NCBI GenBank assembly: GCA_000004985.1
Contig: GG738910.1
Direction: 5' to 3' (one strand)
DNA: 64,000 nucleotides
Source of the DNA: Naegleria gruberi
Taxonomy: Eukaryota
Under the pieces are notes generated by a model, which saw nothing but the letters and a program-made list of their open reading frames with translations, searched no databases and was not told the DNA's origin. The position numbers and the translations under genes are program-made. Of the stretch, positions 1,761 to 63,940 are shown piece by piece (position 1 is the first letter of the stretch; each line of letters starts with the position of its first letter).

Positions 1761-1789
1761 AGTCACACACTACTGATGGATTGAAAAAA

Positions 1790-7981: not shown

Positions 7982-8189
7982 AAATTTATTAGGATCATCA
8001 ACATTACCAACAACAAATAATGATCAAATTATTGGTGCATATAAATTATTGAATAATTTATTATTATTAGAATCTAATCATTCAGAGCCTTCTCATCATC
8101 CACAACAACAACAACAACAAGTAAATGATAGTACTAGTACTTTTATTACTAATAATAGTAATTTACATAATTATGATCTTCCTTCTAAT

Positions 8190-11317: not shown

Positions 11318-11367
11318 NNNNNNNNNNNNNNNNNNNNNNNNNNNNNNNNNNNNNNNNNNNNNNNNNN
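11318..11367. other. Assembly gap (50 N)
   Basis: Run of n. Confidence 0.99.
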
Positions 11368-25819: not shown

Positions 25820-26260
25820 TTATTCTAAACAATGTGGTGCAAAGTTCTTTAGAAATGTAGAANNNNNNNNNNNNNNNNNNNNNNNNNNNNNNNNNNNNNN
25901 NNNNNNNNNNNNACTGTTATTATCGATTGAAGAAACATCATTACTTGTAGATGATGTAGTGGATGAAATTGAGGTTTTTCTCTTCTTTAATGGTTGAGTG
26001 TTCGATAGCCGTGATGTGTATGAACTATTGTATTGAAAACTTTCTATATTATTAGTTAATAGAGTTGAATTATATTGATTACTACCACTAGCTGCACTCT
26101 CCTCCATCTGGTTGATGCTCATCTCTTGATTAAATATATTATTAATATAATTCATTGTAATATCAGCAGTATTAGTAATTATCTTTAAACATTCCCAACT
26201 TTTCATAAAATCATTAACATCAAGTTGTAATTTAATAGTATTATCATCACACTGATTCAT
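25820..26260 (-). CDS. Fam2 member f (minus strand; ATG at 26260, since the track start at 26332 is TTG): MNQCDDNTIKLQLDVNDFMKSWECLKIITN...KKRKTSISSTTSS... C-terminal region interrupted by the gap at 25862-25912.
   Basis: Retains a degenerate LDV-DFM-SWE-LK motif and a KKRKTS block. Divergent from copies a-e. Confidence 0.4.
   Translation of the reverse strand: MNQCDDNTIKLQLDVNDFMKSWECLKIITNTADITMNYINNIFNQEMSINQMEESAASGSNQYNSTLLTNNIESFQYNSSYTSRLSNTQPLKKRKTSISSTTSSTSNDVSSIDNNSXXXXXXXXXXXXXXXXXSTFLKNFAPHCLE
25862..25912. other. Assembly gap (~51 N)
   Basis: Run of n. Confidence 0.99.
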
Positions 26261-45429: not shown

Positions 45430-48400
45430 TTAAATGTTGGAAATTATTGCCTCACTCTTCTGATTTTCCTCATTTACATCCTCAAGAGATTCGAATTCTA
45501 TTATTGGATTTTCGTGGTGAATAGGTTGAATGAGATAGGTCTGACATTCTCCTTTTCCTTTCACCTGAACAATTCTCTCTTCGTAGGTGTACATATCATG
45601 TACTCTTTCATAGGTTGCTCTAGAAATTTGAATTCTTCCTGCTATTGAGGTTGATTCCATTCTTGAGGCAGTATTCACTGTATCACCCCACAAATCAAAT
45701 GCAAACTTTCTCTTTCCAATAACACCAGATGTAGCTGGTCCAGTATTGATACCAACACGGATATTAATTTGATGAGGAGGTATTAATTGTTGTTGATTAT
45801 TTTCAAATCTCTCTCTAATAAACTTCTCTATTGTTTTGGTATTGTAATTTTTGATAACTCCAAATGATTCACAAGCAAATTTACACATTCTTTCAGCATG
45901 ATCTGAATCTGGAAGTTCGTTGAGACCGGAAACTGCAAAATAAGCATCTCCAATAGTCTTGATTTTTTCAATATTATATTTCAATGTCAAATCATCAAAA
46001 CCATTAACAATTTCATTTAACAATCCTACCAATTCGTGGGAGGCCATGTTGGAAGACATTTGTGTGAATCCAACCATATCTGAGAAGAAACATGTAATGC
46101 AATTCAATTTCTCTGAAATAAAACTCTCTCCGGTAGAATTTTTCAACTTGTTAGCAACTGAGAAAGGTAGAATGTTTAGTAACAATTCTTCAGAGTGTTT
46201 CTTCTCATCCTGTAATAGGGCATTCTTTTTCTTCTCAGAGGTTTGATCAGCAATGAAACAAACAACCAACTCCTTTCCCTTATGCAGCACAACAAATATG
46301 CTAATCTTGCTTGGAAATTTCGTCTTGTTCTTTCTAATACATTCTCCTTCAAAAGTCTCTCCTGTGGAAACATCCTCGTTAGATTGATTGCTTCGTATAG
46401 ATTGCACTATTGCCTCTACGGATTTTTTTACCTTATCCTTAATAGCGTCCTCAAACAAATCGAATATTGATGTTCCTATGATTTCAGTCTTGTTGTATCC
46501 AAACATGGTTTGGGCAACTGGATTAAAGGCATCAATATCACCTTTTGAATTCCAACACATAGCTACTCCATCTATTGAGGCATTCAAAACAGATTGAATG
46601 ATAGAGGTATTGTTATCATTGAGAGCATATACCTTGTTAGATTTTGAGAAAGTCCTTTTTAAAGTAGCTGTGGCACCTGTGGATCTTGCCTTTGGATCTA
46701 CTTGATGGAATAAAATATAGTTTCTCAAGTCCTCAGAGCTTTCTATGGCATCTGTATTCAAATAGTTTAGAATCATTCTCAAAGAGTTAACTCCATCAGA
46801 ATAACTACTGAATTGCTTGTAAATAAAGAAGAATAATATTGTTATGAATGGAACAGTCACAATTCCAAAACCTGTGTCAAGTGAGAATAAGGGAACTGCC
46901 GCATAAATAGCAAATATACCTGAGAATTCTATCAATGTAGAGGACACATGTGTCATGTACAGTAAAACTTGGGCATACAGCTCGTGAACATCACTGGATT
47001 TTGATGAAACTTTTTGAGATAGCAAAACTGTCAAATCCAACATTGTAGCTACAACGGTGTCCATGCTTATTGTGCAATTGCTACCATATTTTTTCACTTC
47101 TTGAAAAGTACAGTTATCGTCTCCTCTAATTATCATATCGATTTCAGGGTACATGCCTATCACTAAAGTTTCGTCCTTCTTTGTTGAAGATCCATACATA
47201 CATAAATTCCAAAAATATCTTACTTTGGCCACCAATGGCTCTATTTCCGAATACAGGGCATAAACTTCTGAACTGGTTCTCAGTGGAGGGTTGATTATTG
47301 GCAAAGAGCTTGGAAGAGAGGTATGCATATACAGCTCTGTTACTGCAAAAATTAAATGTTGAAGATAATAGGCAGCGTCATTTGAATCTTTCATAGTAAC
47401 ATAGGATTGACGAGCATACACGCCGTTTCCAGTCATTTCCTCTACAAAAAGACCACAACTTAACGAAGTGAACACCAAAATACCAACAGCCGTGAATATT
47501 ACCAACATTCTTGGATTGAATACCTTACTGTATTCTATTTTAAGAGAAACATCTCTTCTACCATTTCTTGCATTCAACGAGTGATAAATTTTTCCAATAA
47601 TGTTTTTAGAAATAGACTTCTCATAAAGTTTGAAAATACTATCCGTAAATTTCAAATCCTTATAGACATAGTAAATAAATAATATTCCTAGTAGTAGATA
47701 AATGAATAAGAGACTAAAATACACTCCAATTATAATATACTGATACATAGCTCCATTATCGATTGATCTGTCCATATACTGGTTACAAAATGAATTAAAG
47801 GCCTGAATTACAGTGTCATTATTGTAGTATACCCACATAAATGCATAATCATCATATGTACTATTATGACCAGAATCTATAGAGCTGATCAGATCTGTGA
47901 CAGAGGATATGGCCATATTGGTAAAGTCAGCAATGGTGGCATTAATTTGAATGAAAGAAGTGAAAGATTGGTTATTACTACCGTACACAGTTTGAGGCTT
48001 GTAGAGAGGATAATACACTTCATGGAAATCAGAATATAAAGCAAGTGAAAACTTTCCATGACTGGCCATGTTTTTGATAGTTTGATAAGTATTAATGATG
48101 TCGTTAAGAGCGGCTCTATGACTCTGTTTATATTCGAGCACTGTTTCATATCCATAATCTTTCATCATCTGTGACCAATCAGATTCATTCTTATAGAGAT
48201 AGGAAAAGGCTTGGAAAGTTCTGACCTCAGATATTGTGTGAGTATTTGTAGAAATGGTGGAACATGAAGTAAATACAAGCATAACCTCAGAAGTTACCAT
48301 ATAGGAAAAGTAAATTGACATCGAAAGACAAACAGCAAAAAATAATAATGAAAATAAAACAAAAGCTACAAAAAGTGAACATCTGAAACTTGTAGAATGA

Positions 48401-50661: not shown

Positions 50662-51611
50662 TTCCTTTTACTAAACTACAACATTGTTTATCATCACATC
50701 ACAGCCCATTAAATATTATTACTGCAAGAGATAAACAGCTAACACTTGAGATAATTCCATCAACGGTTAATTTCATTTTACCAAATTCCATAAAATTATG
50801 ATGATAAATTAACTACATCTGCTTTAACAGTATTAATTTCATTTTTTTAAGGTAGTCACCAAAATTTTATTCACAATCACTGCCACACAACACACGAGCT
50901 GATTATATACAAGGACAACTTTTGCAGTACATGAGCATGATTTCTTATTCTTTCTTTTTCGGAAATTAATTACTGTTGAATGTGTATGTAGATCAATATT
51001 CTCTTTTGCATGCTACAGAAACAGTCTAGGGACTTCATTGCAATTTCATTTAAAATTTGTAGAAAAATCCGAAAATAAAATTAATTGGTTTTGAATACGG
51101 AAACACAATAAGTAAAGTTGGAGCTGCAGTTTGCAGCCTATCAAGCTGCTCGTGGTTCTGTATTTAGTGTCCGCCAACTTCAAATATAAAAAAATGGTTT
51201 GTTGTGGCGCACAATGCTTGGTTGTTTTTGCAAACTACGGAATGACATAGTATTTTAATTAATTTCAAGAGGAGAACATGATAAATTAATTTTTCCAGAC
51301 ATCTTGCAATTCTATCGAATTCTGAACATTTTGATAGTTTTTGTTTGTTTTTATGTGAAGGTCTGTTATTGTGATGGTGGTGAAACTGTTAGCATAAACT
51401 ACAGACACTTTGGGTACATCATATCCCTTCTGCTTGATCGCACTCAATCAAACCATTGAAAAAAGTACGGTCTCGGTCCACGATGCGTACCAAAAATGTT
51501 CTCCGATTACCGATTTGCACTTTGTAGTGAGAGATAAAAATGACCATTAAATTCTCAGTTTAAAAAAAACATTCAAAGATTCAATAAATAATAATATTCA
51601 ATTTATTAATA

Positions 51612-52025
51612 ATGGAGCTTTCAATACCATCAGCAATAGGAGTACCAATAGAGTGTATTTCTTCACCACATACAATTGCTTCATCAATACGGCCTTTTAC
51701 TGCAGTGTCATCTTCTCAATTAAAAAGTACTACAACAACAATAGATAAGAAGAGAAGACTCAGCAATCCCCCAAAGCCAGTAGTAAACTTTAATGGCTTT
51801 AAACATTTTGTGAGACATGTTAGAAATAACTCTCGTATTTTGGATGAAGAAGTTGTGCCAGAAGAACCAACAGAAGCAGTCCCAGTTACAACAGTCAAGA
51901 AAGTTGTTACTGTGCGCTCCAATAGCAAGATCTTTTCTTTCACGCATTCAATACTGGTGCTGTATGGAGTTTTATTAGCATTGGCTCTGTTTACCATCAT
52001 CAGTGCTTTAATTATTTTAGATTAA
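51612..52025 (+). CDS. Small hypothetical protein (137 aa) with a C-terminal TM segment (tail-anchored type)
   Basis: ATG ORF. Hydrophobic C-terminus ILVLYGVLLALALFTIISALIIL. No homolog recognised. Confidence 0.25.
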   Translation: MELSIPSAIGVPIECISSPHTIASSIRPFTAVSSSQLKSTTTTIDKKRRLSNPPKPVVNFNGFKHFVRHVRNNSRILDEEVVPEEPTEAVPVTTVKKVVTVRSNSKIFSFTHSILVLYGVLLALALFTIISALIILD

Positions 52026-52136
52026 CAAACCATACACCCGAGAATCTCTCTAATGTACATAATACTAACAGAAATCTAATTTACAATGTAAATAATGTAA
52101 ATAAACTGCATCCTAATAGGGACATCACTAAAAAAA

Positions 52137-53528
52137 ATGCAAAGACTTGTCACATGGATTCTTGTTTGTCTGTGCTTGGTGACTTGTAATGCAAATATGG
52201 CTAGTGGTGTTGAGCAGAACAGGAATGTGAGAAAATATCATAATAATATCAAAGCTGGGAGCACTTCATCATATGTTCAGCCTGGCATTAATAATTCTTT
52301 ACAACCTCTGTTTGGACATAATATTGGATTAATTACTAACCCGTCTGGACAAAATTATCAATTATCACAATCAACAATTGATTTACTGATGGAGTTGACA
52401 AAACAGGGCTATTTGAATTTGGTTGCACTTTTTGCTCCCGAACATGGAATTTATGGTGACAAGCCTCCAGGGCAATTCTTTAATGATTATATTGACCCAT
52501 ACACTAAATTACCTGTTTATAGTTTATATAGTGAAACTAATCCGACTCATGAACCACTTCCTTACATGTTGAAAAATGTTACAATGCTAGTTTCGGATAT
52601 TCAAGATGTTGGAATGAGACCTTTCACGTTCATTAGTACAATGTGTGAAGGATTAATTGGAGCAAAGAAAAATTCAATCAAGTTCACAGTTTTGGATAGA
52701 ATTAATTATTTGAATGGAAACATTATAGCTGGTCCAATTTTGAATATGAAATACAAAAGTTTTATTGGAATTTATAAATTACCAATTGTAACTGGTATGA
52801 CTATGGGCGAATTGGCTCTATTGTTTGACAAGGAAATGTATATTAATTTAGACAATGATCTAACAATTATTCCAATAGTAGATGATAGTTCTCAAACCTA
52901 CGGGAAATACAGACCTTCATTCAGAGAAATAAGACAAGTATTCAGACAACCAATATTATATCTACCACCAAGTCCAAATTTGCCAACAATAGAAAGTGTA
53001 GAGTTGTACTCTGGAATGGTCTTGTTTGAAAGTCTGTTCAACATATCTATTGGAAGAGGAACAACAAATCCATTCCAAGTCATTGGTTCTCCATTCATTG
53101 ATTCAAGAAAATGGATGAGCTTTTTGCAACAAGAATTTGCTACAGAACTATCTCTCTATTTCAAATACGTTCAGCTTTCATATCCCACTTATTTTATTCC
53201 ATCTCTTGATATCCACCAGAATGCTCCATGTGAGGGAATTCGTTTAGTGTTAAAACCACTCGATTACAACAATATTACAAACATTGAAGAGTACTATAGA
53301 AGCTTTTTACCCCTCTCTCTTACCCTCATGAAATCTTTACTCAAACTTTACGGAAAGGAATTGCTAATTTGGAGAACTGATTTTGCTCATATTCTCATTG
53401 GATCTGAAGAAACAATATCACAAATATTGGACAATTCTGTGACAGTGGGAGAGATTGTCAATTCATGGAATAAGGATCTTGTCAAGTTCGACAAGAATGT
53501 CAGGCAAAAGTATTTAATTTACAAATGA
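52137..53528 (+). CDS. Secreted DUF1343 / NamZ-like protein (463 aa) with N-terminal signal peptide. Bacterial-type exo-beta-N-acetylmuramidase family.
   Basis: Family motifs: IGLITNPSGQN, LVALFAPEHGIYGD, LPVYSLYSETNPTHEPLPYML, MLVSDIQDVGMRPFTFISTM, FTVLDRINYLNG, IYKLPIVTGMTMGELALLFDKE. Signal peptide MQRLVTWILVCLCLVTCNA. Confidence 0.6.
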   Translation: MQRLVTWILVCLCLVTCNANMASGVEQNRNVRKYHNNIKAGSTSSYVQPGINNSLQPLFGHNIGLITNPSGQNYQLSQSTIDLLMELTKQGYLNLVALFAPEHGIYGDKPPGQFFNDYIDPYTKLPVYSLYSETNPTHEPLPYMLKNVTMLVSDIQDVGMRPFTFISTMCEGLIGAKKNSIKFTVLDRINYLNGNIIAGPILNMKYKSFIGIYKLPIVTGMTMGELALLFDKEMYINLDNDLTIIPIVDDSSQTYGKYRPSFREIRQVFRQPILYLPPSPNLPTIESVELYSGMVLFESLFNISIGRGTTNPFQVIGSPFIDSRKWMSFLQQEFATELSLYFKYVQLSYPTYFIPSLDIHQNAPCEGIRLVLKPLDYNNITNIEEYYRSFLPLSLTLMKSLLKLYGKELLIWRTDFAHILIGSEETISQILDNSVTVGEIVNSWNKDLVKFDKNVRQKYLIYK

Positions 53529-54969
53529 AGTTAATGACAGAACAACAGAAACCACCACCTCACAATATTCGATCGTTCATCAAATCCAAATAAAACAATA
53601 TTCAAATTTTTTTCCTTTAATTTAGATGTGCAATATTCTACTTCTAATCCCTATTCCAGTTCTTGAAAAAATCGTTCCAATTACTAATGTTATTGTGCCC
53701 TTGACATTCTTCCATCAGCCCTATCATAGATATCCCACAAAACTTCAAGACACTTAGACTCCAACTTGTCATATTCCATTAATTTAATGAATATCTCAAA
53801 TTCTCCCTTCCCAACTTTGGAAAGTTGTGGTTTGAGTCTAATTTAAATAATAGATATCTTGACAATTTCATTTCACCAATAGCTGCAAAGTTTACATGGC
53901 GATATGATAGAAGTCCCCAAATATAGATCCTACTCAAGTCAAATCTTTAACCACCATATAAAATATTACTTTTGGCTACAACATCTTTGGAAAAGTAGAA
54001 TGATATTGTAGTTTTCGAGAAATGATGATGGAAAATGATCGATTGAATGGATGAAACATAGAATTTTATCAATTCCATATCAAGCTGGGAAGAAATTTAC
54101 AATGAATTAGACATTTTAGAGAAATGCTGTTCCAAATTAGACAGATTTGTTTCTTACTGAATTACTAGTGGATCTTCCACATCAAACGAAGAACTTGACA
54201 TGGTAAAATACAACACTTGAAAACAGGTTTCCAGTATTGGGTGCCTTAATTAATGACAAAGGGCGAGAATGAAAGAAAACTTGATAATGTGTTCTTTGAA
54301 CAAAACCGCATGTTCAGGAGCAACGTCCAAACTTGTGTAAGCAATCATTTAATCAAGAACCAACACTCTTACTTTGGGGAGTTCAATATTTACTCAAACA
54401 TTTATGTAATATTTCAATACCAACATCCCAAATTTCAAAATCAAGAGTGAGCACTTGGCATCTTCTTGGAATAGGGTTGGGAGCAATCATCTGTCATTGA
54501 GCTCAGAAAGTATTATAAGAAATTCATATTTATTTTCAAATGCCACATCTAAGGAGATTGGGTTCGCACATGATTTTAAGCAATTTGGAAAAACAAGTTT
54601 TTGTGTTTTAAAGTGCTTTATTTTGAAACAGCACAAGAAATTAAACAACAATCTTTTGATAATTAGCTGAAGATTGAGCTTTTTCAAATAATATCATAGC
54701 CACAGTAATTGTCCTCTGTTGTATGTGGACAATAATTCAAAGAATGAGTACCATTCAAAGTTGATAAAAGTTACAGAAGCAAATCTTTGGGTGTTCTGAT
54801 TTCAATAAAAATTCAATTGTATTCAAATTTTTTTCAGCGTCGATATAATTGCCTGGAATCTCTCCTTATCCATTCATTGTTTGTGAATGTTTGTTATGCT
54901 TCTATGTTTGTCTACCGTACCACCAATACAGCCTGCTGTTATTCATAATAATTTTTATTTATTAAAAAA

Positions 54970-56107
54970 ATGACTGAACCAACACCAGTCGATATCACAC
55001 AAATCCCACCACTATCTCATTCCACCAAGGTTGCCTTAATATCTGGTGTTACTGGACAAGATGGATCCTATCTTGCTGAATTACTTTTAGATAAAGGATA
55101 TACTGTATATGGCATGATTAGACGTTCATCATCTTTTAATACAGGAAGAGTTGAACACCTCTATAAGGATGTTCATATTGTTGATGCGAGTAAGTTTAAC
55201 ATTTTATTATTGCTTAGTTTAATTAGAGTTTAAACTTGTGTACGGTGATTTAACTGATACTGGTAACATTATATCTATCATTTCAAAGATAAGACCTGAT
55301 GAAATATACAACCTGGGAGCTCAATCTCATGTTAAAATAAGCTTTGAAATGCCTGAATACACAGCAAATGTTGATGGTATTGGTACCTTACGATTTCTTG
55401 AAGCAATCCGAGCATGTGGTTTGGAAACGAAGACAAGATTTTATCAAGCAAGCACATCAGAGTTGTATGGCTTGGTACAAGAAATTCCTCAAAAAGAAAC
55501 TACTCCATTTTATCCTCGATCTCCTTATGCTTGCGCTAAGTTGTACAGTTACTGGATTGTTATTAACTATAGAGAAGCTTATAACATGTTCGCCTTGAAT
55601 GGTATTCTTTTCAATCATGAAAGTATCCGTAGAGGTCCAACCTTTGTAACAAGAAAAATCACAATGGCAGTAGCTCGTATTCATCTAGGTCTTCAAGAGT
55701 GCTTGTATTTGGGTAATTTGGATGCTGAAAGAGATTGGGGCCACGCAAAGGATTACGTTGAGGCTATGTGGTTGATGCTCCAACAAGAGAAGCCATCAGA
55801 CTATTGTGTTGCCACTGGAGAAAAGCACAAAGTTAGAGAATTTGTTGAAAAATCGTTTGCTGTTCTTGGTAAGAAGGTTGAATGGAAAGGAAAGTCAGGA
55901 ACTGTTGATGAATATGGTGAAGTTGATGGTGCTGTTAGAATTAGAGTTGACCCTCGTTATTTCAGACCAACCGAAGTTGAATTATTAATTGGAGACCCAA
56001 CAAAGGCCGAAACTGAATTAGGATGGAAGAGAAAAGTCAGCTTTGAGGAACTAGTAAAAGGAATGGTAAAAGGAGACGTGGAGTTATTGGGTAGCCAATG
56101 TAACTAG
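54970..56107 (+). CDS. gmd: GDP-mannose 4,6-dehydratase, 2 exons (54970..55189, 55227..56107). Intron 55190..55226 (GTAAGTTTAACATTTTATTATTGCTTAGTTTAATTAG).
   Basis: Motifs: [24 protein letters not shown] (NADP-binding GxxGxxG), [40 protein letters not shown] (Yxxx K), FNHESIRRG. The junction ...[14 protein letters not shown] restores the conserved sequence. Confidence 0.85.
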
Positions 56108-57502: not shown

Positions 57503-60500
57503 TTATTGTTGTGGTTGTCTTGGCTCTAATTCTAAAGACCTATCCCACAATGTATCTTCATCAACAAGTTGAATGTTTCCAAGAGAAAGTAAGGATTGGA
57601 TAGAAGGATTGGTTGAAACTCCACTAGTGTAAAGTTTGTAATCCTCCAAAGTTACTGTTTGGATTTGATTGATAATTCTCTTGATGAAATCAACAGTTTC
57701 GAAATAGTAAGGTTGCATTTGATATTGTCTAATTTCTAAAATAATTTTAGAAACTTGTCTTCGTTTGAATACGTTGATTAGGCCATCACGAATATAGTCT
57801 GGATTACCATCGTTGATGAATGTTAAATCTTTCAGATACATGCTTAATGGAGGAATGCATGGAGGGAGGCAAAGTTGAAGAGCTTGTCTCATGTTCTTGT
57901 TTGCTTGCTCTTGAGAGCACAATTTCTTCAAATCCTCATACAATGTCAAGTACTCTGTTGGAACTGTTGCCCAAGTCTTTTTCAATCTGTAAACAGAAAC
58001 ATTGGATAAACCGCTGAGTATTTCTGAAAGACCATGGAAATTATTGATATCTCTTAATGCATTTGCCAACTCTATAAATTTGATAATGTATCTTCTTCTA
58101 ATTTTGAGATCATTTTGTGAAAGAATAGAACATGCAACAAATTGAGTCATCTTATTCCATCGATCAGTCAAGTGGGCAATATTTGGAGCTTCGTCATATT
58201 TTGAAGATTTTGTCCAGGCACCACTAAGGCATTCCTTTGGTTCAATCTTTTGGAAATATTCGTATTCAATGAGTGTGATTTGTCTTGCGATTTCAATTGG
58301 GCTCCATTCGAGAATATTAAAGGCAACATGTTCACTAAAGTTTTCTGGAATAATAGGGTCAGGAACATCAGTTTGTTTAGCATGTTTAACAGCCTTATCG
58401 TTATCTTTGATCAGCTTGTTACTGAGCGTTTTTCTGAGAGCATTGCAGAAGGAAGAAAATTCTTTGATATTTGCAACTGAATCCAAAAATTGAATCAAAC
58501 GAACAAGCAATAAATTATCAAAATCATGGAAATACTTTTCGACCCACATTTTAACAGCATTGATAACTCTGAGGAGTACTTTAGTGTTGGCTTCTGGTTG
58601 AATATCTTGCTTTTTCTGTTCTTCAGCAATATTGAATCTGTCAATTAACTTATCCATTAGGACATGGCTAGAACAGAAGGAACGATAGGTGAGGAAGAAG
58701 ACATCTCTGAACTTTGGGTCCGTTTCCTTGTCGCTGGTGATTTTTTCAATAAGCTTGTCAAGAGTAGCTGCTTTGATTTGATTATTCTCCACTACATAGT
58801 TCTTCTCAGAGTCTTCAGTAAGGATAAGCTTCTCGTGATTTTTCTCAATGTTCTCTAATTTGGCTTGGTGAGATATCAAGAGGCAGTCAATACTTTCAAG
58901 GATATATGATTCATTTTCTGATTGTGATAGTGGGAAGCAACAAACAGACAATAGAGTACCTAAAGCCCATTTCCATCTGTCGTCATGAATATCAATGCTG
59001 AAAACAGGAATAAGCTTTTGTACAATTGTAACGAATAAAGGAGTTAACATGGTATTTGTCAACATTGGATCCATTCTCTTTCTTACATTTTCAGCATCTT
59101 GTGAAGATTGGTTGAATTGCTCAATATATTTCATAATTAAAAGCAATACCTCCTCGATAACAGGAGAATATTTTTCGTTTTCCATAATCATCAATTCCCA
59201 TTTTTGTTCAATGAAACAGACCAAAATTTCAATAACAATTGTTTTGATCATTCTTCTAGTAACCCTGACAGGATATGCAATGTGCTTGTTAATGGCAATC
59301 GAAAGAAGTTTTACAAAACTAACGAGCACATCTGGAGACTTGTGGTTCCAAATCTCAGGCCATTCTTCTTTCTTTCTATTTCTCAAACAGTGAACAAACG
59401 AAACAGCAAAGTGAGACTGAAGATCATTGTCCATATTTCTTAATAATTTTTCTACATGGGCAATCTCAAAGAAAAGTGGCATTACTAGTTTGCAAATTTC
59501 ATTTCTAGAATCAGCAGAGCTAAACTTTGTTAATGAGTCTAGCTTTACAATTAATCTATTAATTATTCTCAGAGTTATTGTTCTTAAATCTGGTTTGTTG
59601 GCCTTTTGTAAGATACCAATAACAAACTTTAGAAGAAATGGTGTTTCACTACACATGTTAACTTCTACAAATATGCTTGAGTCAATTATAATTTCAGCAA
59701 AATCAAACTTTAGACCCACCACAACAGGAGAAGATTTGAATTGTGTTGTAAGTACATAATCATTGAGGGCTGTCTTGACAAATTTTCTAAATCTAACATC
59801 ATCTTTCATTTCTTTCATTAGTGAAATTTCCAATAAATCACACATGAACAAGGCCAAGTGCCTATTGACAACCTTAACAAAATGTAACTTGATAGGGTCG
59901 CCTGAGGCTGTGAGTAGTCTTTCCATCAATTTTGTTTGTAAGCTTCTCATCTTGGTGTAGAAAACTTCTGTAAATACGTCTTGTTTCTTTCCCTCCAAAA
60001 TGTAGAGTTTCATTGATTTGACAAGTGTATCAAACAAAAACCAAGAAAGTTTCAATGAGTCCAAAGCATTAATTTCTTCAACAGTGCTTTCTTGGCTTTC
60101 TGATGATTGGTTAGAGCGTGGTTTAGAGAAGTAGGTTGCTCTTCTTGGTCTATTGGCTACGCTATCGTTTGTAGAAGAAGAAGCTCCTGAACTTTCTGTA
60201 GTATTCGAGTTTGATTCTTTGGTTCTACTCTCTGTTTCTTTGGTATGACATGATTTGAAGAATTCTTCCCATCTTTCTGCCAACAGTAAACAAAAGCTTG
60301 TATTATCTGGCGTTGGAGGATTTTTGAACATGTAATAAATATATCCATTCAAAAATTGATCTCTCTCATAATAATCTAATCTGGAATTACTTCTCATACC
60401 TCTCAACATGTGGAGAAGAGTTTCAAAGACTAGCAATGAAAGGGAGGTTGTGGTTGTTGATGTTGATGTTGTTGTCTCTTTCACAGATTCAACATTTTTA

Positions 60501-63500
60501 GTTCTGGAGGTGAGAGTGGCTGTTCTCTTTTTTACAAATCCAGCAATACCTAGAGTTTTCTCAGATACAGAGTTATTGTTTTGAATTTCTGAACTTGTAG
60601 AATTCTGCAAAGAGGCTGTTTTAACATTAGCAATAATGTACATTACACAATTCAAAAATACAGGGAAATGATAAAGCATTTGAGACCAATGAGCTTTCTG
60701 GAAGTTTTTCAAAATACTTTCAGCATCAGAAAGTGACATGGCATCATTCAATTGACTCAAAAAGGAACCCTTTGGTAAATTATTGTTCTTTGAATTAATG
60801 AAAAGCCCAGAGTTTGTTAATAAAGATACAGCATTCTTGTCTGATGGGAAAATTGATGATTTGGCAATAACATTAAATCTAAAAATGGATTTTCCATTAG
60901 CATACTTTTGTAAAGACTTATCAGAAAGATAATTGTTTGGTAAAGTTGTGCACTTATATATTGGTAATTTTTTCATACCATTCTTAAATCCTTCATCTTG
61001 GACCAGTTTCAGAATAGAGAAGCCAATCACTGTAGTATCAGCTTTTCCAACTACACCTGATACTGGTTGACCTCTCTTGGAGGAAACATGTCTAAATTCA
61101 AAAACTAAATGATGGTTATCATGAATAGGGAATGGAAGTTGAATTTTGATTTGGTCAAAGAACAGAGGATACTTTTCGTGATAAGTAATACTGGATATGG
61201 CTTGTTGCTTAATATCCATACCTCCAATATAGTTTCTACTTCCTTCAGAGAAAATTCTACTAGCTCCAACAAGAACGCCTCCACTCATTTCATCATTTTC
61301 TCTTAACAAAACTCTAACGGCAACTGATTTGTAAGAATTTGGAAGTGATGTCATATTGATGTTATCAAGTAAAATATACAAAACATGATTGAATGTTAAA
61401 TCTAACTTTGGTGCTGTTGTGAAGAGAGTTGTGGATTTTGAAGAATGAGAAAAAGTATTGAAAGACATGGTTATGGTTTCATCATCATCAAATGTGAAGG
61501 AATCAGCATTGTCTTCTGAGACAGAAACAGCTTTAACTTCATGCACTCCAGTATCATAGAGTGGCCTAACTTGATGATATTTAGAAATATTATCAGGATT
61601 ACTATCAATAAGCATTGTAAATTTTGCAGAAATATTTTTGAAAGTAATATTGTCAACTTTTAAAGTTCCTTTCTGTTTGGAGTAGTCTCTTTGGTGTTCA
61701 ATGAGACTAGAAACATTGCACCTTTGTTTCTTTCCATCTAAGTGAGGGACAACAAATAGCTTGTCAAAGATAATTGCTCCTTTTCTCACTTCATATGTTG
61801 GTGGCTCTTCAATGCTTACTTTGAGTTCATTAGATGTGACAGATTCTCGTTTTTCCTCAAAGAGAGGCTCGACGGCACAGATCAGAGGGGATTTAAATTG
61901 ATCCAAGAACGAGTAAGCTGTTTTAAGTTTTTCCAAGTATGATTTTTTAGATGATTCATCAATCTTTTTCTTTGCTAGATAGGTATTATCAACATATGAG
62001 TTATCTGAGAATATTCTCTTAACCCAGAGAACTAGATAAATGTTTGGATTCTTATCCTTCACAGAAAATATAGCCTTCATCTTGGCCTCTGTACTAAGTA
62101 AATCTTTAGGGAAAGATTTTTCAATTCCCAATTGGGTAAGAGTTCCCATACCAGTGTTCAAAGTAAAATTGAACTCTTCTGAAATTCTTGATTCTGTCTT
62201 TTTATCATACAGATACAGTGTCGCATAGAGTGGTTCCAGATTAATATCAGTATTTTCAAATATTAAACCTTTGGCATTGATGAGAATTTTGAGAGATTGA
62301 TCGACTTGGAAAGGATTTGAAGGTATTCCTCTCTTGCAAACATCCTCTTCCAAATTTGACAGTCTATAAAAAGGGTTATAGATTGAGGCAACTCTATTTG
62401 AAGTTTCTTCATACATCTTTTCGGATACTTCTCGGAAGTTTAACTCTGTGTTAACAATTTCTTCTTCTTCCTCTTCTTCTACATCAACTTCTAATGTTTC
62501 AAGATCGACATCACTTCTTCTTGGGTCAACTAAACTACTACCACTATTGGTCAAAATCATTCCCAAACCAGTATTGGAAGCAGATGAATACTTGCCTCCT
62601 AAATATTCTTGTGAGTTGACAGAAAGATAATTCGTTGAAATTGGAGAAAATGATGAACTGGCAGGAGGAGCAACATTCACAGTTGGGTTGGAAAGTACAT
62701 TATTGGTAGTGTTACTTCTAGCTTTAAGTCTTTTTGGAGTAAGAGGTAGAGAGGCACTTGGAGTAAGAGATGGTTTGTAAGGTGAATCATCAATTCTAAT
62801 CTGATTGGCTGATAGTGGAGCAGAAATTGGTACAATTGTACTTCCGATTTGTGAGCTAATAAGTAAATTACAAGTGGTTGATGTAGAATCAGACAATTGC
62901 TTTCCTGTAATTGGATTCAATCCAGCCTTTGCGCTCATCTCCAAATCCCAATCCAATTGATTTTTAATTTTCGAACCATCTAAATTATTATTATTAATTC
63001 TAACAATTTGTTTTTCATCTAGAATTAATCGTGTTGCAAATTGAAGAGCAGGATGATCGGAAAGTGAATTATTAAGAATTTGTCTAATAGATTCATCATT
63101 ATTTGATGTTAGTACATCATTAAAGTGGATTGGTAAATTCTCATGAACCATCTCTATGAAATTATCTGGTGGTGAAAAGAGAGGATGTTCCACAAAATCA
63201 TCAGATTGTTTTGGTCGACTTGTAACTGGTACATTTGTTGTTGCTGTTGTTAGACCATTAGTATTATTACCTGTTGTACTAGTGGTTGTTGATGAATTAT
63301 TGTTTCTACATTCTGTATTTTCCTTCTGTGGTGATACTTGTTGTTGATCAACTTCATTTTCTTGTGAGAAGACTTTAACTCCAACAGCCGATGATGCTGC
63401 AAGAGGAGAAGAATTCTTGAAGGAAGATGATTTGCTGTTGGTGTTGGTGGAGGAGGCAGACGATGGGGTATTAGAAGGTCTGGGGGATCTAGGAGTCAAA

Positions 63501-63940
63501 TTTGCTGATTCAAACCTGAGAGCACTTGGTAATCTCTTCAGATTGGAGTTTGATGCTGCTGCCAAGTGATTGCCTCTTGGAGAGGAATAGGAAGATGGTT
63601 GTCCATTTGGTGAATGATCGTTTTCCACAACTTTTGGCAAATTGTGTAATTGTAACTTGTGTTGGAGCATGATTTGAGAAAGGGACTGTTGTTTCACTTC
63701 CACTGGTACCAAATTATCCATTGTTTGATTTGTTGTTGTTGTTGTTTGATTATTGTTATTTGGAGATGGAGTATTTTCCTCATCATCACTTTCAATAGAT
63801 TGAATATCATTTAAACTTTCATCGTCAACATAATCGTCATGTGATGGATAAAATTCCTCTTGTTCCTTCTTTTGTTGTTCTGTTTTGTGAAAGAAATTAT
63901 CTAATAGAAATCTTTGGAAAATACAAACCTGCAATTTCAT
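57503..63940 (-). CDS. Large RasGEF (2145 aa): S/T/N-rich N-terminus, C2/DOCK DHR-1-like region, armadillo-like helical region, RasGEF N-terminal (REM) domain and a C-terminal Cdc25-homology RasGEF catalytic domain.
   Basis: Cdc25 domain: FNILEWSPIEIARQITLIEYEYFQKIEPKECL...PNIAHLTDRWNKMTQFVACSIL...NNFHGLSEILSGLSNVSVYRLKKTW...LPPCIPPLSMYLKDLTFINDGNP. REM: LDKLIEKITSDKETDPKFRDVFFLTYRSFCS. DHR-1-like: ...YPLFFDQIKIQLPFPIHDNHHLVFEFRHVSS...VIGFSILKLVQDEG (coding at ~61080-61140). Single ORF from ATG. Confidence 0.75.
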   Translation of the reverse strand: MKLQVCIFQRFLLDNFFHKTEQQKKEQEEFYPSHDDYVDDESLNDIQSIESDDEENTPSPNNNNQTTTTTNQTMDNLVPVEVKQQSLSQIMLQHKLQLHNLPKVVENDHSPNGQPSSYSSPRGNHLAAASNSNLKRLPSALRFESANLTPRSPRPSNTPSSASSTNTNSKSSSFKNSSPLAASSAVGVKVFSQENEVDQQQVSPQKENTECRNNNSSTTTSTTGNNTNGLTTATTNVPVTSRPKQSDDFVEHPLFSPPDNFIEMVHENLPIHFNDVLTSNNDESIRQILNNSLSDHPALQFATRLILDEKQIVRINNNNLDGSKIKNQLDWDLEMSAKAGLNPITGKQLSDSTSTTCNLLISSQIGSTIVPISAPLSANQIRIDDSPYKPSLTPSASLPLTPKRLKARSNTTNNVLSNPTVNVAPPASSSFSPISTNYLSVNSQEYLGGKYSSASNTGLGMILTNSGSSLVDPRRSDVDLETLEVDVEEEEEEEIVNTELNFREVSEKMYEETSNRVASIYNPFYRLSNLEEDVCKRGIPSNPFQVDQSLKILINAKGLIFENTDINLEPLYATLYLYDKKTESRISEEFNFTLNTGMGTLTQLGIEKSFPKDLLSTEAKMKAIFSVKDKNPNIYLVLWVKRIFSDNSYVDNTYLAKKKIDESSKKSYLEKLKTAYSFLDQFKSPLICAVEPLFEEKRESVTSNELKVSIEEPPTYEVRKGAIIFDKLFVVPHLDGKKQRCNVSSLIEHQRDYSKQKGTLKVDNITFKNISAKFTMLIDSNPDNISKYHQVRPLYDTGVHEVKAVSVSEDNADSFTFDDDETITMSFNTFSHSSKSTTLFTTAPKLDLTFNHVLYILLDNINMTSLPNSYKSVAVRVLLRENDEMSGGVLVGASRIFSEGSRNYIGGMDIKQQAISSITYHEKYPLFFDQIKIQLPFPIHDNHHLVFEFRHVSSKRGQPVSGVVGKADTTVIGFSILKLVQDEGFKNGMKKLPIYKCTTLPNNYLSDKSLQKYANGKSIFRFNVIAKSSIFPSDKNAVSLLTNSGLFINSKNNNLPKGSFLSQLNDAMSLSDAESILKNFQKAHWSQMLYHFPVFLNCVMYIIANVKTASLQNSTSSEIQNNNSVSEKTLGIAGFVKKRTATLTSRTKNVESVKETTTSTSTTTTSLSLLVFETLLHMLRGMRSNSRLDYYERDQFLNGYIYYMFKNPPTPDNTSFCLLLAERWEEFFKSCHTKETESRTKESNSNTTESSGASSSTNDSVANRPRRATYFSKPRSNQSSESQESTVEEINALDSLKLSWFLFDTLVKSMKLYILEGKKQDVFTEVFYTKMRSLQTKLMERLLTASGDPIKLHFVKVVNRHLALFMCDLLEISLMKEMKDDVRFRKFVKTALNDYVLTTQFKSSPVVVGLKFDFAEIIIDSSIFVEVNMCSETPFLLKFVIGILQKANKPDLRTITLRIINRLIVKLDSLTKFSSADSRNEICKLVMPLFFEIAHVEKLLRNMDNDLQSHFAVSFVHCLRNRKKEEWPEIWNHKSPDVLVSFVKLLSIAINKHIAYPVRVTRRMIKTIVIEILVCFIEQKWELMIMENEKYSPVIEEVLLLIMKYIEQFNQSSQDAENVRKRMDPMLTNTMLTPLFVTIVQKLIPVFSIDIHDDRWKWALGTLLSVCCFPLSQSENESYILESIDCLLISHQAKLENIEKNHEKLILTEDSEKNYVVENNQIKAATLDKLIEKITSDKETDPKFRDVFFLTYRSFCSSHVLMDKLIDRFNIAEEQKKQDIQPEANTKVLLRVINAVKMWVEKYFHDFDNLLLVRLIQFLDSVANIKEFSSFCNALRKTLSNKLIKDNDKAVKHAKQTDVPDPIIPENFSEHVAFNILEWSPIEIARQITLIEYEYFQKIEPKECLSGAWTKSSKYDEAPNIAHLTDRWNKMTQFVACSILSQNDLKIRRRYIIKFIELANALRDINNFHGLSEILSGLSNVSVYRLKKTWATVPTEYLTLYEDLKKLCSQEQANKNMRQALQLCLPPCIPPLSMYLKDLTFINDGNPDYIRDGLINVFKRRQVSKIILEIRQYQMQPYYFETVDFIKRIINQIQTVTLEDYKLYTSGVSTNPSIQSLLSLGNIQLVDEDTLWDRSLELEPRQPQQ

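What the first reader, a model, noticed from the sequence alone, without database searches (positions are those of the whole stretch)
52137..53528. Secreted bacterial-type DUF1343/NamZ-like protein in a eukaryotic context (HGT candidate)
Signal peptide plus a full set of DUF1343 motifs (GLITN, ALFxPEHG, YSLY, DIQDVG, VLDR, GMTMGEL). The family is essentially bacterial, typified by the exo-beta-N-acetylmuramidase NamZ, which acts on peptidoglycan fragments. In a bacterivorous amoeba a secreted or lysosomal muramidase of bacterial origin makes biological sense. It would be one more case of the known acquisition of bacterial cell-wall-degrading enzymes by dictyostelids. The gene is intronless and sits between unrelated eukaryotic genes, so it is not contamination.
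Basis: partly seen in the sequence, partly recalled or inferred. Interest (0 to 1): 0.55.

Follow-up and report, generated by a model that had tools for sequence, protein, structure and literature searches.

The report
Naegleria secreted NamZ exo-muramidase gene
This is an intact, selectively maintained gene of the amoeboflagellate Naegleria gruberi (not a slime mould) for a secreted bacterial-type enzyme predicted to clip N-acetylmuramic acid off bacterial cell-wall sugar chains; it was probably acquired from bacteria long ago, is shared with other amoebae, and is a plausible but ordinary addition to the known toolkit of bacteria-eating protists.

Summary
ORF 52137-53528 (+) encodes a 463-aa protein with an N-terminal signal-peptide-like segment and all six cited motifs. 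It has full NamZ_N and NamZ_C (GH171/DUF1343) domains. The AlphaFold model is confident and matches only the two DUF1343 crystal structures. The proposed catalytic Glu (E102) and cleft Arg (R307) are conserved.

The host is Naegleria gruberi (Heterolobosea), locus NAEGRDRAFT_59573, not a dictyostelid. Contamination is excluded by several results:
- GC and codon usage match the neighbouring genes.
- The neighbours are eukaryotic.
- Microsynteny with Willaertia magna is conserved.
- The N. fowleri and W. magna orthologues carry spliceosomal introns at two different positions.
- dN/dS is 0.13 between two N. gruberi-like strains.

The gene is not a recent private acquisition. It belongs to a 26-sequence clade (NJ bootstrap 100) whose checked members all lie on eukaryotic contigs and keep a secretory N-terminus. 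The rest of the family (about 4,900 representatives) is, as far as named hits and the literature show, bacterial. The bacterial donor is unresolved.

The best reading is an anciently transferred secreted or phagosomal exo-beta-N-acetylmuramidase. It would feed the MurNAc catabolic route for which Naegleria has a biochemically validated etherase. NamZ transfer into protists is already published for ciliates, so this is a new member of a known kind. The public gene model appears to lack the signal peptide.

The parts
52137..53528 (+). Complete intronless CDS (463 aa plus stop) of a GH171/NamZ-family protein. It corresponds to N. gruberi NAEGRDRAFT_59573, extended by 20 N-terminal codons.
   Evidence: ORF list. 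100% identity to P0001/XP_002670902 over 96% of the query. A 463-aa version, P0121, was called independently on an ENA contig.
52137..52193 (+). Signal-peptide-like N-terminus (aa 1-19: MQRLVTWILVCLCLVTCNA), with predicted cleavage after Ala19. The public model starts at Met21 (ATG at 52197) and omits this segment.
   Evidence: 14-residue hydrophobic core with a maximum 12-residue Kyte-Doolittle mean of 2.98. Helix at residues 2-19 followed by a disordered linker at 22-41 in the AF2 model. In the sister strain, Met21 is Val while codons 1-20 are conserved. A-rich start context aaaaaaaATG. Every full-length clade member has an equivalent segment.
52323..52991 (+). NamZ_N catalytic domain (aa 63-285), a Rossmann-like alpha/beta/alpha fold.
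   Evidence: PF07075, E=1.1e-58. phmmer hits to 4k05 (1.4e-42) and 4jja (3.3e-40). Foldseek target-normalised TM 0.87 and 0.85.
52440..52442 (+). Codon for Glu102. It is equivalent to the proposed catalytic Glu92 of B. subtilis NamZ, within ALFAPEHG, just after beta-strand 2.
   Evidence: Alignment to a B. subtilis 414-aa NamZ; the residue is conserved in all 20 sequences compared and invariant in alignment A2. The strand spans residues 94-100 in the model. The role of Glu92 is proposed in PMC8054146.
53004..53522 (+). NamZ_C auxiliary domain (aa 290-462).
   Evidence: PF20732, E=2.8e-28.
53055..53057 (+). Codon for Arg307. It is equivalent to the cleft-facing Arg279 of B. subtilis NamZ, within SIGRGTTNPF.
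   Evidence: alignment. (R307 at least 90% conserved). The role of Arg279 is proposed in PMC8054146. 4k05/BfNamZ1 has Val at this position (SIGVGYT), whereas 4jja/BfNamZ2 has SLGRGTT.
57503..63940 (-). Synteny anchor, not part of the enzyme: a 2145-aa DOCK-C2 + RasGEF gene downstream of NamZ on the opposite strand. The arrangement is conserved next to the Willaertia magna orthologue.
   Evidence: Pfam. tblastn 44% identity over 1423 aa to L005 12178-16326, which lies 2.6 kb downstream of W. magna NamZ.
51430..53598 (.). 2.17-kb block (orf137 + NamZ). It is the only stretch shared, at 96% nucleotide identity, with the N. gruberi-like metagenomic contig L008. The flanks on both sides are unrelated.
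   Evidence: blastn and sliding identity. No terminal repeats at the block ends.

Best explanation
The gene encodes a functional GH171 exo-lytic peptidoglycan hexosaminidase, most likely an exo-beta-N-acetylmuramidase like B. subtilis NamZ.

Proposed mechanism. The enzyme enters the secretory pathway of Naegleria gruberi through a cleavable signal peptide. It then acts in phagosomes/lysosomes or extracellularly on peptide-free peptidoglycan glycan strands and muropeptide sugars. Lysozymes, amidases and hexosaminidases would first have opened these substrates. The enzyme removes non-reducing-end MurNAc. The released MurNAc would then be phosphorylated and cleaved by the amoeba's GKRP-type MurNAc-6-P etherase into GlcNAc-6-P and D-lactate.

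Proposed evolution. The gene descends from a bacterial namZ that was transferred into a eukaryote long ago, before the Naegleria/Willaertia split and probably earlier. It has since been inherited vertically and fully domesticated.

Shown here: family membership, fold, conservation of the two proposed active-site residues, a secretory N-terminus by heuristic and conservation, eukaryotic integration, purifying selection, and monophyly of the eukaryote-context clade.

Inferred: the exact substrate and product, the compartment, the link to the etherase pathway, and the direction and timing of transfer.
For: Family and fold:
- Pfam NamZ_N at 1.1e-58 and NamZ_C at 2.8e-28.
- PDB sequence hits to 4k05 and 4jja.
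- AF2 model with pLDDT 90.6 and pTM 0.86. By Foldseek it matches only those two DUF1343 structures, at target-normalised TM 0.87 and 0.85.

Active site:
- E102 corresponds to Glu92 and R307 to Arg279; both are conserved. Their roles are proposed in PMC8054146.
- The Arg is kept, as in BsNamZ and BfNamZ2 (the monosaccharide-releasing type). It is replaced by Val in BfNamZ1, which clusters with the disaccharide-releasing TfNamZ1.

Secretion:
- A hydrophobic N-terminus is present in every full-length member of the clade, either 14-18 aa (signal-peptide-like) or 27 aa (signal-anchor).
- Met21 is not conserved, whereas codons 1-20 are.
- The bacterial NamZ enzymes are themselves secreted.

Functional constraint: dN/dS = 0.13 at dS = 0.124 against L008.

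Eukaryotic residency:
- GC 0.338, GC3 0.289 and RSCU correlation r = 0.92, all within the range of 13 neighbouring ORFs.
- Neighbours include a PAS-adenylate cyclase, an intron-containing GDP-mannose dehydratase and a DOCK-RasGEF gene.
- The NamZ/DOCK-RasGEF microsynteny is shared with W. magna.
- Canonical 51-nt GT..AG introns split ALFAP|EHG in N. fowleri and HG|MTMGEL in W. magna.

Phylogeny:
- A 26-sequence clade has NJ bootstrap 100. Naegleria spp. plus Willaertia within it also have bootstrap 100.
- The clade has diagnostic residues P111, F115, M234 and V295.
- Contigs from three of the four non-Naegleriidae subclades carry eukaryotic genes: ARPC4 with an in-frame insert read as an intron, SBDS, PP2C, Pkinase and OGFr_N. 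One further member comes from EukProt.
- The family has 4,882 representatives. Named hits outside the clade are all bacterial, and the literature describes a bacterial distribution.

Pathway context:
- Naegleria has lysozymes, anhydro-MurNAc kinase, a GKRP homologue and D-lactate dehydrogenase (PMC9928731).
- The N. gruberi GKRP homologue has measured MurNAc-6-P etherase activity (bioRxiv 10.64898/2026.05.08.723886, citing its ref. 17).
Against: - No enzymology, expression or localisation data exist for any eukaryotic member.
- The authors of the T. forsythia study state that specificity within GH171 cannot be predicted from sequence.
- B. subtilis NamZ is optimal at pH 6-8 and stable only at pH 6-10. 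That fits poorly with a strongly acidic lysosome unless the amoebal enzyme has adapted or acts elsewhere.
- The catalytic mechanism of GH171 is itself unresolved. Glu92 and Arg279 are 'putative'.
- In all clade members the Glu of the Bacillus-type SEGRGT motif is replaced by I/L/V. BfNamZ2 shares this feature.
- The bacterial sister group is unresolved (bootstrap below 10), so the direction of transfer rests on taxonomic distribution only.
- The tree is NJ on Kimura-corrected distances, not maximum likelihood.
- No MurNAc-pathway genes are clustered with the gene in the window.
Confidence: 0.7

Rival explanations
1. Same family, different chemistry. The amoebal enzyme is an exo-disaccharidase like T. 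forsythia NamZ1, releasing GlcNAc-MurNAc. Alternatively it acts on a non-peptidoglycan hexosamine glycan, such as chitin-like prey or symbiont walls (as suggested for Paramecium NAMZ) or the amoeba's own cyst-wall or surface glycans.
For: GH171 members with about 40% identity differ in product, and the authors warn that sequence does not predict specificity. The clade is about as far from characterised NamZs (mean corrected distance at least 1.02) as it is deep internally. It has its own diagnostic substitutions and an SxGRGT variant. The Paramecium study speculates about action on chitin-like substrates.
Against: The proposed catalytic Glu and the cleft Arg are both retained. The only structure from the TfNamZ1-like branch (4k05/BfNamZ1) lacks that Arg. 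MurNAc catabolic enzymes exist in Naegleria, which argues that MurNAc is really liberated. No GH171 member has been shown to act outside peptidoglycan.
Confidence: 0.17
2. Ancestral eukaryotic gene. GH171 was present in early eukaryotes, or arrived with an endosymbiont, and was lost from most lineages. The clade then reflects vertical descent, not a later HGT.
For: The eukaryote-context sequences are monophyletic (bootstrap 100). The clade is deep (mean internal distance 0.79, maximum 1.14), almost as deep as its distance to bacteria. The bacterial sister group is unresolved.
Against: Only three named eukaryotes appear in the clade: N. gruberi, N. fowleri and W. magna. They are accompanied by unidentified environmental eukaryotes and one EukProt entry. 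No animal, fungus, plant, dictyostelid or Acanthamoeba protein is among the best 120 hits. The one placement test available puts the NamZ-linked SBDS nearest Acrasis kona, also a heterolobosean. This suggests a taxonomically narrow clade. Ciliate NamZ genes are reported as separate prokaryote-to-eukaryote transfers.
Confidence: 0.08
3. Recent, lineage-specific HGT into this species.
For: The gene is intronless in N. gruberi. The 2.17-kb orf137+NamZ block sits in a different genomic context in a closely related strain, which hints at local mobility.
Against: Orthologues exist at 52-65% identity in N. fowleri, W. magna and L006, with conserved synteny to W. magna and independently acquired introns. 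Codon usage is fully host-like. There is no close bacterial relative: the best bacterial hit is 37% identical, versus 38-44% for other eukaryote-context sequences.
Confidence: 0.03
4. Bacterial contamination, or a mis-assembled bacterial fragment in the scaffold.
For: The family is bacterial in type and the gene is intronless. The scaffold contains assembly gaps elsewhere.
Against: No gap lies within 25 kb of the gene; the nearest N run ends at 25912. GC, GC3 and RSCU are indistinguishable from the flanking eukaryotic genes. Identical sequence lies on a 244-kb N. gruberi scaffold. The gene was recovered independently in a metagenome, in N. fowleri and in W. magna, with spliceosomal introns in the latter two.
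Confidence: 0.01
5. Acquisition through a virus, either a giant virus of amoebae or a phage carried by prey.
For: 18 IMG/VR contigs encode DUF1343 proteins.
Against: Those hits are only 28-32% identical. They lie at the extreme ends of 10-44-kb prophage-like contigs, and are therefore probably flanking bacterial genes. None approaches the 38-69% identity seen within the eukaryotic clade.
Confidence: 0.01

Closest known systems
B. subtilis NamZ (YbbC), founding member of CAZy GH171 (PMC8054146)
   Same: Same two-domain architecture (NamZ_N + NamZ_C), about 36% identity over the full length, N-terminal secretion signal, and conserved Glu92 and Arg279 equivalents.
   Different: The host is eukaryotic. 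There is no murQ-murR-murP-amiE-nagZ operon context. A 35-residue disordered linker follows the signal peptide. The motif is SIGRGT in place of SEGRGT. There are clade-specific substitutions (P111, F115, M234, V295) and four N-glycosylation sequons. The activity is untested.
Bacteroides fragilis BfNamZ1/BfNamZ2 (PDB 4K05/4JJA) and Tannerella forsythia TfNamZ1 (exo-disaccharidase) and TfNamZ2 (exo-muramidase)
   Same: These are the only solved structures with this fold. The model superposes at target-normalised TM 0.85-0.87. The SxGRGT motif with an aliphatic x is shared with BfNamZ2.
   Different: Foldseek identity is 28%. BfNamZ1 lacks the cleft Arg that the Naegleria protein keeps. Which of the two specificities applies here cannot be settled from sequence.
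HGT-derived NAMZ of Paramecium bursaria (bioRxiv 10.1101/2024.09.14.613017) and NamZ among the LGT genes of anaerobic APM ciliates (PMC13198582)
   Same: The same protein family, reported as transferred from prokaryotes into bacterivorous protists and proposed to process cell-wall amino sugars.
   Different: A different eukaryotic supergroup. Neither paper's main text discusses Naegleria or Heterolobosea in this context; the only mentions are in a reference list. I could not test whether the ciliate genes belong to the same clade, because no ciliate sequences were retrievable.
Naegleria MurNAc-catabolic enzymes: GKRP-type MurNAc-6-P etherase, anhydro-MurNAc kinase and D-lactate dehydrogenase, together with phagosomal lysozymes
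   Same: The same proposed physiological process, digestion and catabolism of prey peptidoglycan sugars. The etherase activity has been shown biochemically for the N. gruberi protein.
   Different: These are unrelated folds and they act downstream or upstream. NamZ would be the step that releases free MurNAc. That step is not mentioned in the Naegleria literature I could search.

Membership tests
GH171 / NamZ (Pfam PF07075 + PF20732, formerly DUF1343) | Both family domains present, full length and in order | tested here: met
   NamZ_N covers model positions 1-202 of 203 (198 bits against a cut-off of 26.9). NamZ_C covers 2-152 of 152 (100 bits against a cut-off of 25).
GH171 / NamZ (Pfam PF07075 + PF20732, formerly DUF1343) | Characteristic fold: Rossmann-like alpha/beta/alpha N-domain plus an alpha/beta C-domain, as in 4K05/4JJA | tested here: met
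   AF2 pLDDT 90.6. Foldseek E = 1e-28 and 2.5e-24, target-normalised TM 0.87 and 0.85; the next hit has E = 0.02.
GH171 / NamZ (Pfam PF07075 + PF20732, formerly DUF1343) | Conserved carboxylate at the tip of beta-strand 2 (Glu92 in BsNamZ) | tested here: met
   E102 in ALFAPEHG is invariant in A2. It lies just after the strand at residues 94-100.
GH171 / NamZ (Pfam PF07075 + PF20732, formerly DUF1343) | Conserved cleft-facing arginine of the C-terminal region (Arg279 in BsNamZ) | tested here: met
   R307 in SIGRGTT, at least 90% conserved in A2. Its spatial proximity to E102 in the model was not measured.
GH171 / NamZ (Pfam PF07075 + PF20732, formerly DUF1343) | Export signal (the characterised members are secreted or periplasmic) | tested here: met
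   Signal-peptide-like N-terminus by heuristic criteria, conserved across the clade. No SignalP-type predictor was available.
GH171 / NamZ (Pfam PF07075 + PF20732, formerly DUF1343) | Exo-lytic release of non-reducing-end MurNAc (or GlcNAc-MurNAc) from peptide-free peptidoglycan glycans or pNP-MurNAc | not testable with these tools
   Requires enzymology. Literature standards are given.
GH171 / NamZ (Pfam PF07075 + PF20732, formerly DUF1343) | Genomic association with MurNAc or peptidoglycan recycling genes (murQ, nagZ, amiE, ampG), as in B. subtilis and T. forsythia | tested here: not met
   The neighbours are an adenylate cyclase, a 137-aa tail-anchored ORF, GDP-mannose dehydratase and a DOCK-RasGEF gene. 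This is expected for a eukaryote and is not a strict family criterion. Pathway partners exist elsewhere in the genome according to the literature.
Prokaryote-to-eukaryote HGT-derived gene | Physically integrated in a eukaryotic chromosome among eukaryotic genes | tested here: met
   The gene lies on a 244-kb N. gruberi scaffold.
Prokaryote-to-eukaryote HGT-derived gene | Eukaryotic gene features (host-like composition; spliceosomal introns in the gene or its orthologues) | tested here: met
   RSCU correlation r = 0.92 and GC3 = 0.29, both within the neighbours' range. 51-nt GT..AG introns are present in the N. fowleri and W. magna orthologues.
Prokaryote-to-eukaryote HGT-derived gene | Phylogeny nests the eukaryotic sequences within a specific prokaryotic group with support | tested here: inconclusive
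   The eukaryote-context clade is monophyletic (bootstrap 100), but its sister node has bootstrap 9 and deeper nodes have 0. Bacillaceae NamZ are nearest by distance, by a negligible margin of 1.02-1.07 against a mean of 1.18. The tree is NJ only.
Prokaryote-to-eukaryote HGT-derived gene | Patchy and narrow distribution in eukaryotes against a broad distribution in prokaryotes | tested here: inconclusive
   There are 4,882 family representatives. Named hits outside the clade are bacterial. The named eukaryotes are only Naegleria spp. and Willaertia. The other clade members are unidentified eukaryotes: the SBDS marker groups with Acrasis kona at only 55% bootstrap. The AFDB taxon survey was unavailable.
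   The host is Naegleria gruberi: Discoba, Heterolobosea. No dictyostelid homologue appears among the best 120 hits.

The most novel reading that the evidence does not exclude
The 26-sequence clade may be a eukaryote-adapted GH171 lineage that is spread over several groups of phagotrophic protists, not only Naegleriidae. Its members are targeted to the endomembrane system either as soluble signal-peptide proteins or as type II membrane-anchored proteins. It would be the missing first committed step of a complete eukaryotic MurNAc catabolic pathway: NamZ, then a MurNAc/anhydro-MurNAc kinase, then the GKRP-type etherase, then D-lactate dehydrogenase. If so, peptidoglycan-sugar catabolism would be an old, assembled eukaryotic trait of bacterivores. 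It would also be the physiological setting in which the ancestor of the animal glucokinase regulatory protein operated.
Probability: 0.25. Interest if true: 0.6.

Novelty: new member of a known kind. Interest (0 to 1): 0.36.

Why it matters
N. gruberi is the organism in which the GKRP ancestor was shown to be a working MurNAc-6-phosphate etherase. The Naegleria literature I could search does not name the enzyme that liberates MurNAc from prey cell walls. A secreted GH171 exo-muramidase would fill that gap and make the pathway testable.

The gene also documents an old, well-domesticated bacterial gene in Heterolobosea, including the pathogen N. fowleri. The supporting evidence is unusually clean: independent intron gains inside catalytic motifs, conserved synteny and purifying selection.

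There is a practical point as well. The public N. gruberi gene model appears to be truncated at the 5' end and so hides the signal peptide.

Against this, the gene is already catalogued as a DUF1343 protein, and NamZ transfer into bacterivorous protists is already published for ciliates. The conceptual advance is therefore modest.

Tried and rejected
- NCBIfam scan: no family at E <= 0.01, so it was uninformative.
- Literature searches for DUF1343 with Dictyostelium, DUF1343 with Naegleria, the locus tags and accessions, and the sample accessions all returned nothing.
- Identifying the unnamed eukaryotes of the clade. The SBDS gene linked to NamZ on L001 and L003 was used as a marker, first alone and then as a profile. 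The closest named sequence is Acrasis kona (52% identity; NJ grouping at 55% bootstrap). This suggests Heterolobosea but is not decisive. The Naegleria SBDS was not retrieved by the word-indexed search, so there was no calibration. The species behind the EukProt entry 'gene6162-10169_t' (P0013) could not be resolved.
- The AFDB50 fold search, intended as a survey of named eukaryotes with this fold, was unavailable.
- Donor inference was abandoned. Support for the bacterial sister node is 9% or less and the distance margins are negligible.
- Viral vector: only distant hits (28-32% identity) at the edges of prophage contigs, so it was rejected.
- Transposon-like mobility of the orf137+NamZ block: there are no terminal direct or inverted repeats at the homology boundaries, so it is not supported.
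- Contamination and recent-transfer readings were rejected on composition, synteny, introns and orthologue distribution.
- orf137 has no tblastn match at the N. fowleri, W. magna or L006 loci, so it is not a conserved partner of NamZ beyond N. gruberi.
Full report
1. THE OBSERVATION

One search lists an ATG-to-stop frame at 52137..53528 on the + strand, encoding 463 aa. All six quoted motifs are present: GLITN at aa 64-68, ALFAPEHG at 97-104, YSLY at 128-131, DIQDVG at 154-159, VLDR at 185-188 and GMTMGEL at 220-226. Pfam finds both halves of the family end to end: NamZ_N at E = 1.1e-58 and NamZ_C at E = 2.8e-28. The only sequence relatives with solved structures are the two Bacteroides fragilis DUF1343 proteins, 4K05 (1.4e-42) and 4JJA (3.3e-40).

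An AlphaFold2 model built on a 55-sequence alignment is confident, with mean pLDDT 90.6 and pTM 0.86. By Foldseek it matches those two structures only, at target-normalised TM 0.87 and 0.85. The next hit has E = 0.02.

The N-terminus has the shape of a signal peptide. It reads MQR, then a 14-residue uncharged hydrophobic core LVTWILVCLCLVTC, then NAN, with small residues at -3 and -1 if cleavage follows Ala19. A disordered linker follows at residues 22-41.

2. WHOSE GENE IT IS

The protein is in fact 100% identical to Naegleria gruberi NAEGRDRAFT_59573 (XP_002670902, UniProt D2VY90), which lies on a 244-kb scaffold. N. gruberi is a heterolobosean in Discoba and is unrelated to Amoebozoa.

The public model is 443 aa long and starts at Met21, so it lacks the hydrophobic N-terminus. 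Three results favour the ATG at 52137 as the true start:
- An independently assembled N. gruberi-like contig (L008) encodes the 463-aa form. In it residue 21 is Val, while codons 1-20 are conserved with only V10I and C13F changes.
- The start context is aaaaaaaATG.
- Every full-length relative in the eukaryotic clade carries an equivalent hydrophobic N-terminus.

3. CONTAMINATION IS EXCLUDED, AND THE GENE IS OLD IN THIS LINEAGE

The gene's GC (0.338), GC3 (0.289) and codon-usage correlation with the pooled neighbouring ORFs (r = 0.92) all lie inside the range of 13 other long ORFs in the window.

The flanking genes are eukaryotic. They include a 1743-aa PAS-domain adenylate cyclase, a GDP-mannose 4,6-dehydratase that is split across two ORFs and so apparently interrupted by an intron, ankyrin/VWA, RCC1 and SH3 proteins, and a 2145-aa DOCK-C2 + RasGEF protein.

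Orthologues exist in N. fowleri (FDP41_000984) and Willaertia magna (ABK040_016449). In W. magna the orthologous DOCK-RasGEF gene (44% identity over 1423 aa) lies just downstream of NamZ on the opposite strand, as it does in the window.

Both orthologues contain canonical 51-nt GT..AG introns, at different positions. In N. fowleri the intron lies between Pro and Glu of the catalytic ALFAP|EHG motif and contains an in-frame stop. In W. magna it lies inside HG|MTMGEL. Removing each intron restores the conserved motif.

Between the window and L008, dN/dS is 0.13 at dS 0.124, so the gene is under purifying selection.

4. A EUKARYOTIC CLADE, NOT A PRIVATE TRANSFER

After the Naegleria and Willaertia proteins (52-69% identity by protein search or tblastn), the next-best matches (38-44% identity) are unnamed metagenomic proteins and one EukProt entry. 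They all score above every bacterial sequence; the best bacterial sequences are Bacillaceae NamZ at about 36-37%.

Their contigs are eukaryotic:
- L001 carries SBDS and an ARPC4 gene whose ORF holds an in-frame insert that I read as an intron.
- L002 carries a protein kinase and ABC1.
- L003 carries PP2C, a CN-hydrolase and SBDS.
- L004 carries OGFr_N and GST.

An exhaustive HMMER scan of 1.84 billion representatives finds 4,882 family members. There is a clear score gap after the first eight or so.

A neighbour-joining tree of 254 domain sequences over 374 columns, with 100 bootstraps, gives the following:
- N. gruberi plus the other Naegleria-like sequences: bootstrap 100.
- That group plus Willaertia: bootstrap 100.
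- A 26-sequence clade containing all the eukaryote-context sequences: bootstrap 100.
- Nodes joining that clade to bacterial groups: bootstrap 9 and 0.

The clade has its own diagnostic residues, P111, F115, M234 and V295. It is deep, with a mean internal corrected distance of 0.79 against 1.02-1.18 to outsiders.

All full-length members keep a secretory N-terminus. In most it is 14-18 residues long and signal-peptide-like. In one subclade it is a 27-residue signal-anchor preceded by a short cytosolic tail.

The identity of the unnamed eukaryotes is only partly resolved. The SBDS gene that sits next to NamZ on L001 and L003 is closest to that of Acrasis kona, another heterolobosean. However, identity is only 52% and the grouping has only 55% bootstrap.

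Even so, named hits outside the clade are all bacterial and the founding paper describes a bacterial distribution. Bacterium-to-eukaryote transfer remains the most economical origin, but an ancient one with an unresolved donor. Viral carriage is not supported: the IMG/VR hits are 28-32% identical and sit at the edges of prophage contigs.

5. WHAT IT MOST LIKELY DOES

B. subtilis NamZ is a secreted exo-beta-N-acetylmuramidase. It removes non-reducing-end MurNAc from peptide-free peptidoglycan fragments and works with the amidase AmiE and the glucosaminidase NagZ. Its proposed active site has Glu92 at the tip of beta-strand 2 and Arg279 pointing into the inter-domain cleft (PMC8054146).

Both residues are conserved here, as E102 and R307. 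E102 lies just after the strand at residues 94-100 in the model.

Within GH171, T. forsythia NamZ1 releases GlcNAc-MurNAc disaccharides, whereas NamZ2 and BsNamZ release MurNAc. The authors caution that sequence does not predict which. One hint comes from the alignments. BfNamZ1 (4K05), which clusters with TfNamZ1, has Val in place of the Arg (SIGVGYT). BfNamZ2 (4JJA; SLGRGTT), BsNamZ (SEGRGTT) and the Naegleria protein (SIGRGTT) all keep it. I therefore favour monosaccharide exo-muramidase activity, with low certainty.

The physiological context is supportive. Naegleria encodes several lysozymes, an anhydro-MurNAc kinase, a GKRP homologue and D-lactate dehydrogenase (PMC9928731). The N. gruberi GKRP homologue has measured MurNAc-6-phosphate etherase activity. 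A secreted or phagosomal NamZ would supply the free MurNAc that this route needs.

One caveat concerns pH. BsNamZ works best at pH 6-8 and is unstable below pH 6. An acidic-lysosome role would need an adapted pH profile or a different site of action.

6. COMPARISON WITH WHAT IS KNOWN, AND NOVELTY

Membership in GH171/NamZ is met on every criterion that could be tested: domains, fold, both proposed active-site residues, and an export signal. The enzymatic activity itself cannot be tested here.

The gene is already catalogued as 'DUF1343 domain-containing protein'. Transfer of NamZ from prokaryotes to bacterivorous protists has been published for Paramecium bursaria and for anaerobic ciliates. 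I found no paper linking DUF1343/NamZ with Naegleria or with the locus tags. Neither ciliate paper discusses Naegleria in this context.

This is therefore a new member of a known kind. It is a well-supported but conceptually unsurprising case. It has added value because it fills a gap in a partly validated pathway and corrects a gene model.

7. LOOSE ENDS

The N. gruberi-like contig L008 matches the window only across 51430-53598, which is orf137 plus NamZ, at 96% nucleotide identity. The flanks on both sides are unrelated, and there are no terminal repeats at the boundaries. Within the block, orf137 is almost identical between the two sequences, while NamZ has dS 0.12. I could not distinguish a rearrangement between N. 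gruberi-complex lineages, relocation of the two-gene block, or a chimeric metagenome assembly.

The tree is distance-based only. The ciliate sequences could not be included. The AFDB taxon survey was unavailable.

Noticed in passing
window 52137-52199: The public N. gruberi gene model (XP_002670902, 443 aa) starts at the internal Met21 (ATG at 52197) and omits the 20-codon signal-peptide region. In a sister strain residue 21 is Val, so the upstream ATG at 52137 is the likely true start.
   Followed up: yes
window 51430-53598 versus L008 868-3032: A metagenomic N. gruberi-like contig shares only this 2.17-kb two-gene block (orf137 + NamZ, 96% identity). The boundaries are sharp, the flanks on both sides are unrelated, and there are no terminal repeats. 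Divergence is also uneven within the block: orf137 has 2 differences in 411 nt, whereas NamZ has 51 in 1389 nt. The cause (rearrangement, block relocation or chimeric assembly) was not resolved.
   Followed up: partly
window 51612-52025 (+): A 137-aa ORF with a C-terminal hydrophobic helix, which looks tail-anchored, lies 111 nt upstream of NamZ. It has no Pfam hit. It is conserved in L008 but has no match at the N. fowleri, W. magna or L006 loci.
   Followed up: partly
L007 8496-8546 (N. fowleri) and L005 8746-8796 (W. magna): The two orthologues each have a single intron of exactly 51 nt beginning GTAAGT, at different positions. Both introns split highly conserved motifs (ALFAP|EHG and HG|MTMGEL). 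The N. gruberi gene has neither.
   Followed up: yes
proteins P0006, P0007, P0010 and P0132; L002 4668-6047: One subclade of the eukaryotic NamZ clade has a 27-residue signal-anchor in place of the short signal peptide. It is preceded by a conserved cytosolic tail (..DDYYSK.RK.NL..). This suggests type II membrane proteins with a possible tyrosine-based sorting signal.
   Followed up: no
L001 1434-3664 and L003 6001-8510: NamZ is immediately followed by the ribosome-maturation gene SBDS, on the same strand, in two unidentified eukaryotes with very different GC (35% and 49%). This is conserved microsynteny that Naegleria lacks.
   Followed up: partly
proteins P0133 (990 aa), P0134 (1544 aa) and P0216 (1329 aa): Some high-scoring representatives contain two or three NamZ units in one predicted protein. 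These may be tandem duplications or merged gene models. They fall outside the 26-member clade in the NJ tree.
   Followed up: no
window 57503-63940 (-) and L005 12181-17539: A 2145-aa protein combines a DOCK-type C2 domain with RasGEF_N and RasGEF domains. The architecture is conserved between N. gruberi and W. magna at 44% identity.
   Followed up: partly
window 45430-50661 (-): A 1743-aa multi-pass membrane protein with a TmcB-like TPR region, a PAS domain and a class III adenylate/guanylate cyclase domain lies directly upstream. Cyclase genes also lie upstream of NamZ in W. magna and N. fowleri, but the N. fowleri one is only weakly similar (23.5% identity over 200 aa) and the W. magna one gave no hit.
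   Followed up: partly
window 1633-1682, 2666-7981, 11318-11367, 15302-15351, 24829-24878 and 25863-25912: Runs of N mark assembly gaps: one of 5.3 kb and five of 50 nt. ORFs listed across 1781-8921 are artefacts of the large gap. None of the gaps is near the NamZ gene.
   Followed up: no
window 54970-56107 (+): GDP-mannose 4,6-dehydratase is split into two ORFs (54970-55233 and 55238-56107). This is consistent with a short intron near 55180-55240, but the exact splice sites were not determined.
   Followed up: no
L009-L026 (IMG/VR contigs): DUF1343 genes recur within the first or last 1.3-2.2 kb of many prophage-like viral contigs of about 30 kb. This suggests a conserved bacterial integration neighbourhood and not a phage-encoded NamZ.
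   Followed up: no
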